From NCBI RefSeq assembly GCF_000026545.1, contig NC_011601.1: a stretch of DNA of 64,000 bases; one strand, written 5' to 3'. This document shows, in pieces, positions 51,201-60,200 of the stretch. A program made the position numbers. The first letter of the stretch is position 1. The number at the start of each line of letters is the position of its first letter. The DNA is from Escherichia coli O127:H6 str. E2348/69 (GTDB lineage: Bacteria; Pseudomonadota; Gammaproteobacteria; Enterobacterales; Enterobacteriaceae).

Positions 51201-54200
51201 GCAACTGCGCATTTTTACCGGCGATGAAATTATTCCGACTCTCGTATCAACCTTAAAATCTGACGAAGATAACCCGAATATTATCGAAGGTGCTTCGTCG
51301 TGGTTTGATATACAAGCCCCACACGAAATCACTTTTAATCTTGATGGCGAACCGTTGAGTGGGCAAAACTTCCATATTGAAATACTTCCGGCGGCGTTGC
51401 GTTGTCGATTACCACCAGATTGTCCATTGTTAAGGTAAGTACAAAACAAACGCAGAAGCAGGATCCGCAGGCCGGCATCATCCCTGGATTCTTCTGCACT
51501 TACAATTTTTTCATGCAGTCACCCCGTTGCCATTAACTCTTCAAGTGATGCATACCCGACTACCGCAGAGTTAAAGCACGGCTGTTGAAAATCCTCGGCG
51601 ACAACAATCGTTTTAATTCCCGCTGCCTGTGCAGCTTTAAAACCACTCAGACTGTCTTCTATAACCAGACAATCTGCGGCGGGCAGGCGTAATTTTCGTA
51701 GTGCGGAGAGGTAAACTGCCGGATGTGGTTTGCCGTGGCTTTCGTCGTCAGCACTGCAAATCACCGAAAAACAGTGTTCAATTTTGAGTTTTGTCAGCAC
51801 CGCATCAATCACCTGATAAGATGAAGAGGTCGCCAGTGCCAGTTGGTATCCTGACTGGCATAAAAAAGTGAGCACATTCTTTACCCCCGGCATGGCCTCG
51901 CCTTTTTCAGCAATTAACGTGGTTATCAGGCGACGGATCTCCGCTTCCAGTTCCGTGGGCGTAATAGACAGATGACAGTATTCGCACCAGGTTCGGGCTA
52001 TCTCATCAAGCCTTTTCCCTTTCGTCAGTTGGATACACTCTTCATCGCTAACGCTGGCACCCCATCGTGCCAGCGCTCCTTGTTGCGCCTGACGCCATAA
52101 TCCTTCCGAATCAATAATGACGCCGTCCATATCAAAAATAACTGCTTTGCAATTAAACATCGTTCCTCACATTAAAGCCTGGCATTACACCAGGCTTGCC
52201 TCCATCAGGAAACCGTCGCGGCTTCACCTGCTCTTAATTTCTGGGTTGAGAATCCTGGTTGTTCAACCCGAATAAACGGGCAAATAATAAACGCGATAAT
52301 GTACAGGGTTGTATAAGCTATAACCACACCAATTGCACTGAAATAAGGTAACAGCACCACGGCTATCGCAGGGGCAAGAAAGTTAGACAGACCGGCAGAG
52401 AGGTTATAAACCGAAATCGCCGCGCCTTTGTGTTTTGGCTCCAGCGCCGGGAAAACCGCCGCCATCGGCACGAACGCTGCAACAAAGATCCCCAGCGCAA
52501 CGGCGGGCACCATTGCCATCCAATAGTTATGCCCGAAGTATTGCGGCATGTAGTAGAAAGCCAGACTGGAAAGTGCCATTCCCACACAGCCGAACCAGCG
52601 AACAACTTTCATCCAGCCAATCTTCTCTGCCAGTACGCCCCAGAAAATGTTGGTAAAAATCGTCGTGAAGAAGAAGACCGCCCACACCTGTAGCCACTCG
52701 GACGTAGTAAAGCCCAGTTCATCGACAAACATCATCGGCATAATCACCGCAAAGCCAAACAGTGACAATGTATTGATAATTCGCACAATACTGGAGAGCA
52801 AAATGTTGCGGTTGGTGTAGAGTAAGGTGACAGCACGGCCGAGCTCGCTGAACTTCTCTTTGGTCGTCAGATTTTGCATATGATGCGGAGTCTGAACTTT
52901 ACGCATCGAAACCAACGCAAGAATGCCGCCAGTTACGCAAAATCCCAGCGCCAGCCACAGGGTGCCCATTTCGCCGATAACCGGAATGGTAAAGCTGGGA
53001 ATGTAACTACCGAAAACGCCAATACCAATGGAGTAAACCGCCCAGAACCAGCCCAGCGCGGCACTGGTACTGTCGCTGCGCACGTTATGCACAACGGCAA
53101 CGATAAAGGCGTAAAGGAAGAGAGGATATGCCAGACCACGAATGCCGTAGAACAGCAGAATTAATGCATAGTTCGCCTGCCCCAGACCGAAGACCAGAAA
53201 CAGCACATGGAAAATACACCACAGTACAAAACCGATGAACATGGTCTTTTGCGGCGTAATAATTTCCGCCACCACGCCGGATACCCATGCAGAGAGTGCC
53301 GCCGCCAGACCATACAGCGTGAAAGCAAATGAAGCTTCCGCAGGCGTAAAGCCCAGCGCCTTAATATAGTGCGATAGGAATGCCAGTTCAAAACCATCGC
53401 CGGTCATAAAGATAGCAATCGCTATATATCCCCAGACCAGATTTAAAGGTAATCCCAGCCATTGTTTATTGGTTAACGACATAGTGACCTCGTTTGTAGG
53501 GTACAAAACGCCGCTCCGGTGTCACCACCGGAGAGCATTAATGACAGTTGTTATTGGTTGCGATAGTTAAGATCGTTGTTGTATAGCGCGTTAAACTGTT
53601 GATAACGTTGCATCAAAGCCTGATGGCGTTCAGCATCGCTGTGCCAGGTTTGGTAGATTTCCGGTTTTTCGCAGACCGCCGTCAGCGGTTTACCTGCGGC
53701 TAGACAAGCCAGACGCGCCGCGCCAAGCGCACCACCGGTTTCCCCACCTTTATGCGTTACAACCGGCATGTTGAGAATATCCGCCAGCAGTTGCGCCCAG
53801 AACGGACTTCTCGCCCCTCCCCCCACCAGCGAACATTGTTCAATAGCCGTTCCACTCTCTTGCAGAACACGCAGTCCGTCAGCAATACCAAAACTCACAC
53901 CTTCCAGTACGGCATAGCCCATCAGTGCTCGCTGGCTGGAATGGGTCAGTCCCCAGAACATCCCTCTGGCATCCGAGTCGTTATGGGGAGTCCGTTCTCC
54001 GGAAAGATATGGCAGAAACATCGGGGCACTGGCTTTTTCTGCTGGCGAAAGCTGGGCTATCTCTTCGAGTAATTCTGTTTCGGTAACGCCCACCAGACGG
54101 CAAAACCATTGCAAGCAACTTGCGGCGCTAAGCATGACGCTCATCTGATGCCATAAATTCGGCAGCACATGGCAAAATGCGTGGACGGCTGATTGCGGGG

Positions 54201-57200: not shown

Positions 57201-60200
57201 TCGCCTGTAATTCCAATGTTATATTCGTCGGCATCGGTGCATTAGGTCGGCAAAGCCCGATCTTCAAAGATGGCTTTATCAATGAACAGCAACTGGAAGA
57301 GTTAACGATGCTCGGTGGTGTCGGGGAAATTCTTGGGCGCTTTATCGACGCCGACGGCAATGTGGTGGAAAGCCATATTAACCGGATGATCACCAGCTAC
57401 GATATCCGCGAAAGTCAGTGTCCGCGAATTGCCGCCGCCTGCGGTGAAGATAAACGCCCGGCTATTCTCGCGGCGTTAAAAGGCGGATGGATCAACGGCC
57501 TGGTGACCGATGAACACACCGCTCGTTGGTTATTGACTCGCTAAGTCAAGCAACCACATTCAGACTGGGGATCAATTCCGGTGAGATCTCAATGCGCCGC
57601 ACCGTGGTGTCACCGGAATCTATAATCTCAGACACCTTCTCCAGCATGGCTGGGCACATCCTGACGCACCATGTCGATATCATGCCCCAGCAGAGAAACA
57701 AACGGATCCCAGTCAAAACAGCCCATCGGCGGTTGATTGGCCCCCGTCTGTCCCGTTTGCGCCAGCCAGCGCACAACGCCTTCAAGAGAAATGGTTGAGT
57801 TGACAAACAGCCCGTGAAGCGGCATCGCTGAGGAGTGAAAAACGTCTTTCAATAATCCTTCCACTCGTGCGGAAGAGTAGCCGGTAACCAGTTTATGATT
57901 ATCCGGAACAGTTAACCCAATCGCCTGATGAGCATCGACAAAACCGCGTAAACGCTCAGCGGTATTGTTATCACTGATACGCCCGCCGACAAACACCAAC
58001 GCGCCTGATTTGCTGTAACGTTTCTGGCTATTAGCGAAAATGCGTTCGGTCAATAATTTCGCGCCCGTGTAGTTATCAGAAATAATCGACGGTGTCGTGC
58101 CAGTTATCTGGGAACCTATCTACACCGTGTCAAAATTTGCGGTTCAGGCCTTCGTCCACACAACTCGCCGCCAGGTTTCACAATATGGCATCCGCGTTGG
58201 CGCGGTGTTGCCGGGTCCGGTGGTTACCGCTCTGCACGACGACTGGCCGAAAGCCAAAATGGATGAGGCTCTGGCAAACGGCAGCCTGATGCAGCCGATC
58301 GAAGTAGCGGAGTCGGTGCTGTTCATGGTCACCCGTTCAAAAAATGTCACCGTGCGCGATCTGGTGATCCTGCCAAACAGCGTTGATCTGTAAGGGCATT
58401 ACTATGACTGCAACCAAAACTGTCATCGGTGTCGATGTGGGTTCAGGCAGCGTCCGGGCTGGGGCTTTGGATCTCCAGGGCACATTACTTGCTCACGCGG
58501 CACACAAAATCACGACCACCCGACGCAGCGGTAGCCGCGTCGAACAGTCCAGTCAGCAAATCTGGCAGGTCCTTTGTTCAAGCATTCGGGAGGCATTGTC
58601 AAAAGCGGATGTCTCTGCACAGAGTGTCGCGGGTATTGGCTTTGATGCTACCTGCTCTCTGGTGGTGCTGGATAAAAATGGTGAACCGTTGCCGGTCAGC
58701 CCGGAAGGTGAAGCGCAGCAAAACATCATTGTCTGGATGGATCATCGTGCTACCAACCAGGCAAAGCGAATCAATGCCACACATCACCCGGTGCTGAAAT
58801 ACGTCGGCGGGATCATTTCACCGGAAATGGAAACACCGAAGCTCCTGTGGCTTAAAGAAAATATGCCTGAAGTCTTCGATCGTGCTGGATATTTCTTCGA
58901 TCTGGCTGATTTTCTGACCTGGCGCGCCACGGGGGACCTGGCTCGTTCGGCCTGTACCGTGACCTGCAAATGGACGTGGCTGGCTCATGAAAATCGCTGT
59001 GATCCGGACTACTTCCACACCATTGGCCTGACAGCGTTAGCTGATGAAGAATTTGCACGTATCGGTCAGCATATTGCATCGCCAGGAACGTCCTGTGGCA
59101 ATGGCCTCCGTTACCGATCCACTTTTTGTTCCCGGCATCTGGGGACAGTACTATAACGTTATGGTTCCTGGGTTATGATTAATCGAAGGCGGACAAAGTG
59201 CTGCCGGTGCGGCTATCGATCAGTTACTGTCGTTCCATCCTGCGTTTGATGAAGCAAATAAACAAGCTCAGCAGGCCGGACAACCATTACTGGTATGGCT
59301 TGCCGACCAAATCCTGGCAAAAACGGCGCAACCGTCCGATGCCGTGGCGCTGGCAAAAGGTTTACATGTGGTGCCGGAATTTCTCGGTAATCGCGCCCCC
59401 TTCGCCGATCCTCATGCCAGAGCTGTGATTTGCGGGCTGGGTATGGAGTGCGATCAGGATAATTTACTCGTTCTGTATGTTGCCGGGTTATGTGGCATCG
59501 TCTATGGTCTGCGACAAATTCTGATGCGCAATCCGCTCTGGGCGTAGTCAATAAAAATATCGTCATTTGCGGCGGTGCCGGTCAGCACCCACTGGTGCGG
59601 CAAATTCTGGCAGTATGGTCTGCCGGTCATTACCACGAAGTGTAGCGAACCGGTATTATTAGGCTCGGCAATTCTGGGAGCTGTTGCCGGAAAAGTTTCA
59701 CCTTCGGTGAGTGATGCCATGCAGCAATTTACCCATGTGGATACGCAATATTATCCACAACAAAATTACCAGACGCTGCATAAGCAGCGGTATGAGGCTT
59801 ATCAGCAATTACAGGCGCTGGCAAAAAACTGTCGGGAGTAAATAAAAAACCGGGGCTCCTTGAAGTTCCCGGTTTTATTGCCCACAAAATTGAGAATAAA
59901 CTACACCGTAATTAATTTTACCCGTGTCTTCTGCAATGCCAGTTTATCCACCTCAGACACAGCATCATCGGTAATAATAATGTCAATTTTTTCGATTGGC
60001 AGTACCTGATTAAAACCGCGACGATTAAATTTCGATGAATCGAGAACGGCAATCACTTTATTCGCCGCTGTCACCATCGCACCGCTAACGGAATAACCTT
60101 CATTAAAGGTCGTAATACCATTAACCGCATCAATACCATCAGCACCGACAAACATTAAATCGGCATTAATATCCTGCAGGGAACGTTCAGCAATAGATCC

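What the first reader, a model, noticed from the sequence alone, without database searches (positions are those of the whole stretch)
51440..59880. Pentitol island between yegS and gatR: arabinitol genes look intact, ribitol genes are decayed
About 8.4 kb absent from K-12 carries an apparently intact D-arabinitol set (regulator, dehydrogenase, xylulokinase, MFS permease, plus a HAD hydrolase). The adjacent ribitol set is degraded: a LacI-like regulator fragment and a ribitol dehydrogenase fragment lacking its NAD-binding N-terminus abut each other, consistent with one deletion removing both 5' ends and the divergent promoter (junction near 58054..58096). The ribulokinase is broken into four frames, and no ribitol permease is present. 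Predicted phenotype is D-arabinitol positive, ribitol negative.
Basis: partly seen in the sequence, partly recalled or inferred. Interest (0 to 1): 0.6.

Follow-up and report, generated by a model that had tools for sequence, protein, structure and literature searches.

The report
Half-decayed pentitol sugar-alcohol island
This E. coli E2348/69 segment is the known ribitol/D-arabinitol island: the D-arabinitol genes are whole and the ribitol genes are dead pseudogenes, which is an ordinary, already-annotated case of gene decay.

Summary
The window is E. coli E2348/69 (EPEC O127:H6). About 8,467 bp (window ~51432-59898) replace the 81-bp yegS-gatR spacer of K-12.

- **Intact D-arabinitol arm:** HAD phosphatase, dalT, dalK, dalD and dalR are all full length. 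They match the lengths in E. coli C and O55:H7.
- **Decayed ribitol arm, compared with the intact O55:H7 island:**
  - One 1094-bp deletion at a CGGTG microhomology (58085-58090). It removes 163 N-terminal codons of rbtR, the divergent control region and 148 N-terminal codons of rbtD.
  - A +1 frameshift in the rbtR remnant.
  - In rbtK: a 161-bp deletion at a 9-bp repeat, a TGG>TGA nonsense codon, a 1-bp deletion and a net 5-bp deletion.
- **Not a sequencing artefact:** three E2348/69 assemblies are identical, and eight related strains checked base by base carry every lesion.
- **Relaxed selection:** amino-acid changes on the E2348 branch are 16 versus 1 (O55 branch) in rbtK/rbtD, but 8 versus 5 in the dal genes.
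the missing rbtT permease is not part of the decay. O55:H7 islands with intact rbtRDK, and another Enterobacteriaceae genome, also have only one transporter.

The predicted phenotype (D-arabinitol positive, ribitol negative) was not tested. RefSeq already flags the three pseudogenes, so novelty is low.

The parts
51432..59898 (.). Pentitol island: DNA with no counterpart in K-12, replacing the 81-bp yegS-gatR spacer
   Evidence: Border alignments to K-12 MG1655. No flanking repeats or IS elements.
51519..52160 (-). HAD-family sugar-phosphate phosphatase, 44 bp downstream of dalT and probably co-transcribed with it
   Evidence: Best NCBIfam hit is hexitol phosphatase HxpB, 172.9 bits, below the 191 cut-off. 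The DxDG motif is present. A 2-bp indel at the extreme 3' end changes the C-terminus from TVAA* to TG*.
52205..53482 (-). dalT, the only pentitol MFS transporter in this island (425 aa)
   Evidence: TIGR00897 RbtT/DalT/CsbX, 519 bits against a 375 cut-off. 93% aa identity to E. coli C DalT and 83% to its RbtT.
53551..55014 (-). dalK, D-xylulokinase (487 aa), intact
   Evidence: TIGR01312 XylB, 639.8 bits against a 380 cut-off. Full-length match to PDB 2ITM xylulose kinase, E 6e-160. Same length as in E. coli C and O55:H7.
55028..56395 (-). dalD, D-arabinitol 4-dehydrogenase (455 aa), intact. Contains a lineage-specific C8/G8 run at about 56302-56309
   Evidence: NF043014 equivalog, 747.9 bits against a 600 cut-off. 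Homopolymer comparison.
56396..56602 (.). dalD-dalR divergent control region, conserved
   Evidence: Four-way alignment with 93% mean column identity. E2348/69 shows no change private to this strain.
56603..57544 (+). dalR, SorC/DeoR-type sugar-binding regulator (313 aa), intact
   Evidence: The protein is identical in E2348/69, its relatives and strain XJ6-3 (WP_001030842).
57546..58089 (-). rbtR pseudogene (LacI family). It lacks the 163 N-terminal codons, including the DNA-binding domain, and has a +1 frameshift at 57651
   Evidence: Alignment to the intact 1032-bp gene of O55:H7 / XJ6-3. PGAP note: frameshifted, missing N-terminus.
58085..58090 (.). Junction of the 1094-bp deletion, at a CGGTG microhomology (9 of 10 matches over ATCG[A/C]CGGTG)
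58090..58393 (+). rbtD pseudogene: the C-terminal ~100 codons of ribitol 2-dehydrogenase. The Rossmann N-terminus is gone
   Evidence: The intact ortholog matches PDB 'Ribitol 2-dehydrogenase' 9x6o over its full length, E 1.4e-147.
58404..59843 (+). rbtK (D-ribulokinase, FGGY pentulose kinase) pseudogene, 1438 bp instead of 1605 bp
   Evidence: The intact ortholog scores 838.6 bits on TIGR01315.
59090..59099 (.). Junction of the 161-bp deletion in rbtK, at the 9-bp direct repeat CAATGGCCT
59176..59178 (+). Nonsense codon W312* (TGG to TGA) in rbtK
59521..59522 (+). 1-bp deletion in rbtK
59613..59614 (+). Net 5-bp complex deletion in rbtK
59852..59879 (+). Terminator-like hairpin plus T-run after rbtK. 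This is the right end of the island, with no trace of rbtT
59901..60680 (-). gatR, intact right flank, followed by the gat operon

Best explanation
This is the enterobacterial pentitol (D-arabinitol/ribitol; dal/rbt, also called atl/rtl) catabolic island. Here it is the variant that sits between yegS and gatR and carries a single MFS transporter.

In the E2348/69 lineage the D-arabinitol arm is kept under purifying selection. It consists of dalD, dalK, dalT and a HAD phosphatase, with the divergently transcribed dalR. It should still work as follows: DalT imports D-arabinitol, DalD oxidises it to D-xylulose, and DalK phosphorylates that to xylulose-5-phosphate.

The ribitol arm has been a set of pseudogenes for a long time:
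- One microhomology-mediated 1094-bp deletion removed the DNA-binding half of RbtR, the rbtR-rbtD control region and the NAD-binding/catalytic half of RbtD.
- rbtK then, or also, accumulated a 161-bp repeat-mediated deletion, a nonsense codon and two small frameshifts.
- The rbtR remnant gained a +1 frameshift.

**Shown:** the gene content, every lesion, their presence across strains, and the asymmetric substitution pattern.

**Inferred:** the phenotype (D-arabinitol positive, ribitol negative) and the order of the lesions.
For: - **Source and annotation.** The window is 100% identical to three E2348/69 assemblies. PGAP already marks the three rbt genes as pseudogenes.
- **Intact references.** O55:H7 CB9615 and XJ6-3 carry rbtR 1032 bp, rbtD 750 bp and rbtK 1605 bp at 98% identity in the same slot.
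- **Lesions.** All lesions and both microhomology junctions were mapped base by base.
- **Shared across strains.** Eight related strains from humans, dogs and water share all lesions. Four of them add a further 7-bp deletion in rbtK, so decay is ongoing.
- **dal genes look functional.** They are full length and pass NCBIfam cut-offs: DalD 748 against 600, XylB 640 against 380, DalT 519 against 375. They are collinear with E. coli C at 92-94% aa identity, with mostly synonymous differences.
- **Asymmetric protein change, polarised with E. coli C.** rbtK/rbtD changed 16 times on the E2348 branch and once on the O55 branch. The dal genes changed 8 versus 5 times. The per-codon excess has Fisher p = 2.5e-5.
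- **Control region.** The dalD-dalR region is conserved.
- **Published context.** Both the island and its relation to gat are described (PMC2806823).
Against: - No growth or expression data for E2348/69 on either pentitol were found.
- E2348/69 alone carries DalK P347S, beside the conserved PYLSGERTPHN motif. Pro is conserved in 4 of 5 orthologs and in E. coli XylB; Shimwellia has Ala.
- E2348/69 alone also carries DalT T383A. Thr is invariant in all the other aligned sequences (six).
- The lineage has acquired a frameshift-prone C8 run in dalD. It is out of frame in 2 of the 8 related assemblies. So the dal arm may also be starting to decay in some members, or those two cases are assembly errors.
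Confidence: 0.88

Rival explanations
1. The rbt lesions are sequencing or assembly artefacts, such as homopolymer errors or a collapsed region, and the genes are really intact.
For: Two relatives do show +/-1 length changes at a C8 run in dalD, which could be assembly errors.
Against: Three independent E2348/69 assemblies are identical over the whole 9.2 kb. Eight other strains, sequenced by different groups, share all six lesions. The principal lesions are 1094-bp and 161-bp deletions at direct repeats and a TGG>TGA substitution, not homopolymer slips. The excess of amino-acid changes in the remnants is independent evidence of long-standing inactivity.
Confidence: 0.01
2. The whole island is cryptic. 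The dal arm, although open-reading-frame intact, is also non-functional in E2348/69 because of missense or regulatory changes, so the strain uses neither pentitol.
For: Strain-specific DalK P347S and DalT T383A lie at conserved positions. There is a lineage-specific frameshift-prone C8 tract in dalD. No phenotype data were found.
Against: - There are no disabling lesions in 5.9 kb of dal DNA, against six in 2.3 kb of rbt DNA.
- The dal genes show a low and symmetric rate of amino-acid change.
- The control region is conserved and DalR is identical across strains.
- Position 347 of DalK tolerates Ala in Shimwellia.
Confidence: 0.12
3. Loss of the ribitol arm was selected, not merely tolerated. 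After the deletion removed the repressor and the dehydrogenase, leftover RbtK would mis-phosphorylate D-arabinitol to a toxic pentitol phosphate. RbtK could be transcribed by read-through from dalR. This would favour repeated knock-out of rbtK.
For: - rbtK carries four independent disabling lesions, plus a fifth in a sub-lineage.
- No consensus terminator lies on the + strand between dalR and rbtK. There is only a weak hairpin at 57575-57619 without a U-tract.
- The toxicity of pentitols in strains with unbalanced pentitol kinases is my recollection of work by Scangos and Reiner (1978). I could not retrieve it.
Against: One knock-out is enough to remove a toxic activity. Several lesions are what neutral decay over time predicts. 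The rbtR remnant and the intergenic DNA also carry indels. No expression data exist.
Confidence: 0.1

Closest known systems
E. coli O55:H7 CB9615-type ribitol/arabinitol cluster next to the gat operon (PMC2806823)
   Same: It has the same chromosomal slot (yegS-gatR) and the same gene order. It has the same single transporter and the same right-end terminator. Nucleotide identity is 98%.
   Different: In O55:H7, rbtR, rbtD and rbtK are intact. The E2348/69 lineage has the 1094-bp and 161-bp deletions, a nonsense codon and three small indels.
E. coli C rtl-atl (ribitol/D-arabitol) locus, the classical genetically defined pentitol region (Reiner; Link and Reiner 1983, cited in PMC2806823 and PMC6805351)
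   Same: It shows the same mirror-image layout: HAD-dalT-dalK-dalD, then dalR | rbtR, then rbtD-rbtK. Its left border is also at yegS. Protein identity is 85-94% between the O55:H7-type island, which is 98% identical to this one, and E. coli C; E2348/69 DalT itself is 93% identical to E. coli C DalT.
   Different: - Nucleotide identity is only ~83% (76-85% by gene).
- It carries a second transporter, rbtT.
- It replaces the whole gat operon and runs to fbaB, whereas here gat is retained.
- This C-type is in 304 of 5426 complete genomes. The type seen here is in 26.
Klebsiella pneumoniae/aerogenes dal and rbt operons (Heuel et al. 1998; recalled from memory, not retrieved)
   Same: The enzyme set and the divergent-operon logic are the same. 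RbtR belongs to the LacI family and DalR is SorC-like.
   Different: Klebsiella has both dalT and rbtT. It was not compared directly here.
Syntenic locus in Enterobacteriaceae bacterium UBA5654 (L014)
   Same: The order is yegS-HAD-transporter-dalK-dalD-dalR-rbtR-rbtD-rbtK, with a single transporter and intact rbt ORFs.
   Different: Protein identity is 72-84% for the dal and rbt proteins and about 50% for the HAD. It is followed directly by fbaB-yegTUV, with no gat genes.

Membership tests
Enterobacterial pentitol (dal/rbt) catabolic island | D-arabinitol 4-dehydrogenase DalD | tested here: met
   NF043014 equivalog, 747.9 bits against a 600 cut-off, full length 455 aa.
Enterobacterial pentitol (dal/rbt) catabolic island | Dedicated D-xylulokinase DalK adjacent to dalD | tested here: met
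   TIGR01312, 639.8 bits against a 380 cut-off. Matches PDB 2ITM at E 6e-160.
Enterobacterial pentitol (dal/rbt) catabolic island | RbtT/DalT/CsbX-family MFS pentitol transporter | tested here: met
   TIGR00897, 519 bits against a 375 cut-off. There is one copy only. rbtT is absent, as it is in O55:H7 and UBA5654.
Enterobacterial pentitol (dal/rbt) catabolic island | Mirror-image arrangement with convergent regulators dalR and rbtR in the centre | tested here: met
   The dalR stop is at 57544 and the rbtR stop at 57546. The order is the same as in E. coli C and O55:H7.
Enterobacterial pentitol (dal/rbt) catabolic island | Functional ribitol 2-dehydrogenase RbtD and D-ribulokinase RbtK | tested here: not met
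   Only the C-terminal ~100 codons of rbtD remain. rbtK has two deletions, a nonsense codon and a frameshift. The locus is therefore a member by descent with a dead ribitol arm.
Enterobacterial pentitol (dal/rbt) catabolic island | Growth on D-arabinitol and/or ribitol as sole carbon source | not testable with these tools
   No phenotype data for E2348/69 were found in the paper library.
Pseudogene (rbtR, rbtD, rbtK) | Disabling lesions relative to an intact close ortholog, reproducible across independent sequences | tested here: met
Pseudogene (rbtR, rbtD, rbtK) | Relaxed selection on the affected lineage only | tested here: met
   16 versus 1 amino-acid changes in rbtK/rbtD, against 8 versus 5 in the dal genes. 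Fisher p = 2.5e-5 per codon.
Mobile genomic island (integrase or IS-borne) | Flanking direct repeats, an integrase, an IS element or a tRNA target | tested here: not met
   No flanking repeats. No mobility ORFs. Composition is unremarkable at 47-57% GC. Exchange by homologous recombination in the flanks is the likelier route, as proposed for this region in PMC2806823.

The most novel reading that the evidence does not exclude
The ribitol arm was lost by selection rather than drift. Once the 1094-bp deletion had removed the repressor and the dehydrogenase, read-through expression of RbtK during growth on D-arabinitol produced a toxic pentitol phosphate. This drove knock-out of rbtK. The conserved HAD phosphatase downstream of dalT would then act as a pentitol-phosphate detoxifier. 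If true, it would be a natural example of antagonism between the two paired pentitol pathways.
Probability: 0.08. Interest if true: 0.35.

Novelty: already known. Interest (0 to 1): 0.15.

Why it matters
The importance is modest.

- It explains a probable biochemical marker of the E2348/69 (EPEC O127:H6) lineage: D-arabinitol positive, ribitol/adonitol negative.
- It gives a clean, datable example of one half of a paired catabolic island decaying while the other half stays under selection.
- It shows that the 'missing' ribitol permease is an ancestral trait of this island type, not part of the decay.
- It does not open a new question. The island, its coexistence with gat in a minority of strains, and the pseudogene status are already on record.

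Tried and rejected
- **Sequencing artefact.** Rejected on three identical assemblies plus eight further strains.
- **Mobile-element insertion.** No repeats, IS elements, integrase or tRNA were found.
- **Loss of rbtT as part of the decay.** Rejected because islands with intact rbt genes in O55:H7 and UBA5654 also lack it.
- **Donor search.** One scan of genome contigs with RbtK returned only 8 loci, the best at 72% identity. No closer source of this island type was found.
- **Literature on phenotype.** Searches for an E2348/69 pentitol phenotype found only PMC2806823.
- **Literature on genes and toxicity.**
  - Gene-name searches gave noise or nothing.
  - The Scangos/Reiner toxicity work and the E2348/69 genome paper are not held.
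  - The toxicity argument therefore rests on memory only.
- **Terminator between dalR and the rbt remnants.** There is only a weak hairpin (z = -1.9) with no U-tract, which is inconclusive.
- **My own error.** My first HAD comparison was misaligned by the C-terminal indel and should be ignored.

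
Full report
**Source and observation**

The window is 100% identical over 9.2 kb to three independent assemblies of E. coli E2348/69, EPEC O127:H6.
- yegS: 50539-51438 (+)
- HAD hydrolase: 51519-52160 (-)
- MFS transporter: 52205-53482 (-)
- xylulokinase: 53551-55014 (-)
- D-arabinitol 4-dehydrogenase: 55028-56395 (-)
- SorC-type regulator: 56603-57544 (+)
- three broken genes up to 59843
- gatR: 59901-60680 (-)

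Against K-12 MG1655, similarity stops in the last codons of yegS (~51431) and resumes 2 nt before the gatR stop (~59899). So about 8,467 bp replace K-12's 81-bp, REP-containing spacer. There are no flanking repeats, IS elements, integrase or tRNA, and base composition is unremarkable.

**The intact arm**

NCBIfam places the four core proteins above curated cut-offs:

| Protein | Model | Score (bits) | Cut-off (bits) |
|---|---|---|---|
| DalD | NF043014 | 747.9 | 600 |
| DalK | TIGR01312 | 639.8 | 380 |
| DalT | TIGR00897 | 519 | 375 |

- DalK aligns end to end with E. coli XylB, PDB 2ITM.
- All four dal genes have exactly the lengths seen in E. coli C and O55:H7. E. coli C is the strain in which pentitol catabolism was defined.
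- Differences from E. coli C are overwhelmingly synonymous, for example 171 synonymous and 30 non-synonymous codons in dalT.
- The dalD-dalR control region is conserved.
- The HAD protein is a hexitol-phosphatase-like enzyme, scoring 172.9 bits on HxpB, below the cut-off.
- A HAD gene of the same family sits downstream of the transporter gene in all island types examined.
- In this lineage a 2-bp indel changes only its last three residues.

**The decayed arm**

The closest intact references are O55:H7 CB9615 and strain XJ6-3. They are 98% identical, occupy the same slot, and carry rbtR 1032 bp, rbtD 750 bp and rbtK 1605 bp. Global alignment and inspection of the junctions give:
- **1094-bp deletion.** Its ends share CGGTG (window 58085-58089; 9 of 10 matches over ATCG[A/C]CGGTG). 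It removes exactly 163 N-terminal codons of the LacI-family RbtR, the 159-bp divergent control region and the first 148 codons of RbtD. The rbtD remnant starts just upstream of the YxxxK motif.
- **+1 insertion** at 57651 in the rbtR remnant.
- **161-bp deletion** in rbtK between two copies of CAATGGCCT (junction 59090-59099).
- **W312\*** (TGG to TGA) at 59176-59178.
- **1-bp deletion** at 59521/22.
- **Net 5-bp complex deletion** at 59613/14.
- **1-bp intergenic deletion** at 59843/44.

rbtK is therefore four segments in frames 0, 1, 0, 1 and measures 1438 bp, as in the PGAP pseudogene call. The intact RbtD ortholog matches PDB 'Ribitol 2-dehydrogenase' 9x6o at E 1.4e-147. The intact RbtK scores 838.6 bits on the FGGY pentulose kinase model.

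**Not an artefact, and old**

- Eight further strains from humans, dogs and water share every lesion.
- Four of them carry an additional 7-bp deletion at 59524-59530, so decay is continuing.
- Polarising amino-acid changes with E. coli C gives 14 replacements plus the nonsense codon on the E2348 branch of rbtK, against 1 on the O55 branch. For rbtD it is 2 against 0. For the four dal genes together it is 8 against 5.
- Per codon, the excess on the E2348 branch has Fisher p = 2.5e-5.
- E2348-O55 nucleotide divergence is 2.2% in the rbt remnants and 1.4% in the dal block.
- Placing six disabling lesions by chance all within the rbt share of the island has probability ~4e-4.

**Correction on the permease**

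rbtT is indeed absent. Only 57 bp with a terminator-like hairpin separate rbtK from gatR, with no rbtT remnant. But the same is true of all O55:H7-type islands whose rbtRDK are intact.

An Enterobacteriaceae MAG (UBA5654) also has a single transporter and intact rbt ORFs. Its order is yegS-HAD-transporter-dalK-dalD-dalR-rbtR-rbtD-rbtK-fbaB. That transporter is about equally similar to E. coli C DalT and RbtT, which are themselves 85% identical. So the one-transporter layout is an architecture of its own, not a step in this lineage's decay.

**Population context**

Of 5426 complete E. coli genomes, 330 carry dal genes:
- 304 have the E. coli C type. It is ~83% identical, has rbtT, and in E. coli C replaces the gat operon as far as fbaB.
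- 13 have the intact O55:H7 type.
- 13 have the decayed E2348 type.

gatR-gatD are present in 5109 genomes. This fits the near-exclusive 'genotypic exclusion' of Link and Reiner, with a minority holding both, as noted for CB9615 in PMC2806823.

**Mechanism and caveats**

- *Shown:* gene content, lesions, and their distribution and age.
- *Inferred from established pathway knowledge:* DalT, DalD and DalK convert D-arabinitol to xylulose-5-phosphate under DalR control. Without RbtD and RbtK the ribitol route is closed. Hence D-arabinitol positive, ribitol negative.

Caveats:
- No phenotype data were found.
- E2348/69 alone has DalK P347S, next to the PYLSGERTPHN motif. Shimwellia has Ala at that position.
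- E2348/69 alone also has DalT T383A. Thr is otherwise invariant.
- The lineage has created a C8 run in dalD that is 7 or 9 long in two relatives.

A more speculative reading is that rbtK was knocked out by selection against toxic mis-phosphorylation. It rests on my memory of 1978 work that I could not retrieve and on the lack of a clear terminator after dalR. I give it about 0.1.

**Verdict**

The finding is real and correctly read. It is also ordinary and already recorded: RefSeq lists the three pseudogenes, and the island is described in published work. Novelty is 'already known' and interest is low.

Noticed in passing
window 56302-56309 (dalD codon ~31): There is a run of eight C (G8 on the coding strand). 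It is specific to the E2348 lineage: O55:H7 has CTCCCCCC and E. coli C has CGCCCATC. Two related assemblies (RM14723, 377323_2f) have 7 or 9 C and are annotated as frameshifted dalD. These are either assembly errors or the first step of decay in the arabinitol arm.
   Followed up: partly
window 51519-51530 (3' end of the HAD gene): A 2-bp indel relative to O55:H7 and E. coli C changes the C-terminus from ...TVAA* to ...TG*. The gene is otherwise intact.
   Followed up: partly
window 60024-60180 (gatR): A cluster of 8 SNPs in 157 bp separates E2348/69 from all eight relatives, whereas the 8.4-kb island itself has only ~13. This suggests a recombination boundary just right of the island.
   Followed up: no
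window 59901-63223: gatR is intact here (interrupted by IS3E in K-12 MG1655), and gatC is an intact 451-aa ORF (a pseudogene in MG1655). This strain therefore has the gat operon, intact as far as the window shows (gatR, gatD, gatC), as well as the pentitol island, which is the minority 'both' genotype.
   Followed up: partly
window 49560-49656: The CyaR sRNA (Rfam, 100.7 bits) is followed directly by yegR. The ~600-bp cryptic prophage PR-X remnant (ogrK, yegZ) of K-12 is absent, and a 26-bp stretch matches both ends of the K-12 insert. This looks like an unoccupied P2-like attachment site. Strain XJ6-3 has a phage tail gene fragment at the same place.
   Followed up: partly
window 57575-57619: A 22-nt-arm inverted repeat lies 30 bp after the dalR stop, inside the 3' end of rbtR (RNA fold -27.5 kcal/mol, z = -1.9). 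It has no U-tract. It may be a weak terminator for the convergent dalR and rbtR transcripts.
   Followed up: partly
L014 1-16300 (Enterobacteriaceae bacterium UBA5654): A syntenic pentitol locus sits between yegS and fbaB-yegTUV. It has a single transporter, intact rbtR, rbtD and rbtK, and no gat genes. This is a third arrangement, beside the E. coli C type and the O55/E2348 type.
   Followed up: partly
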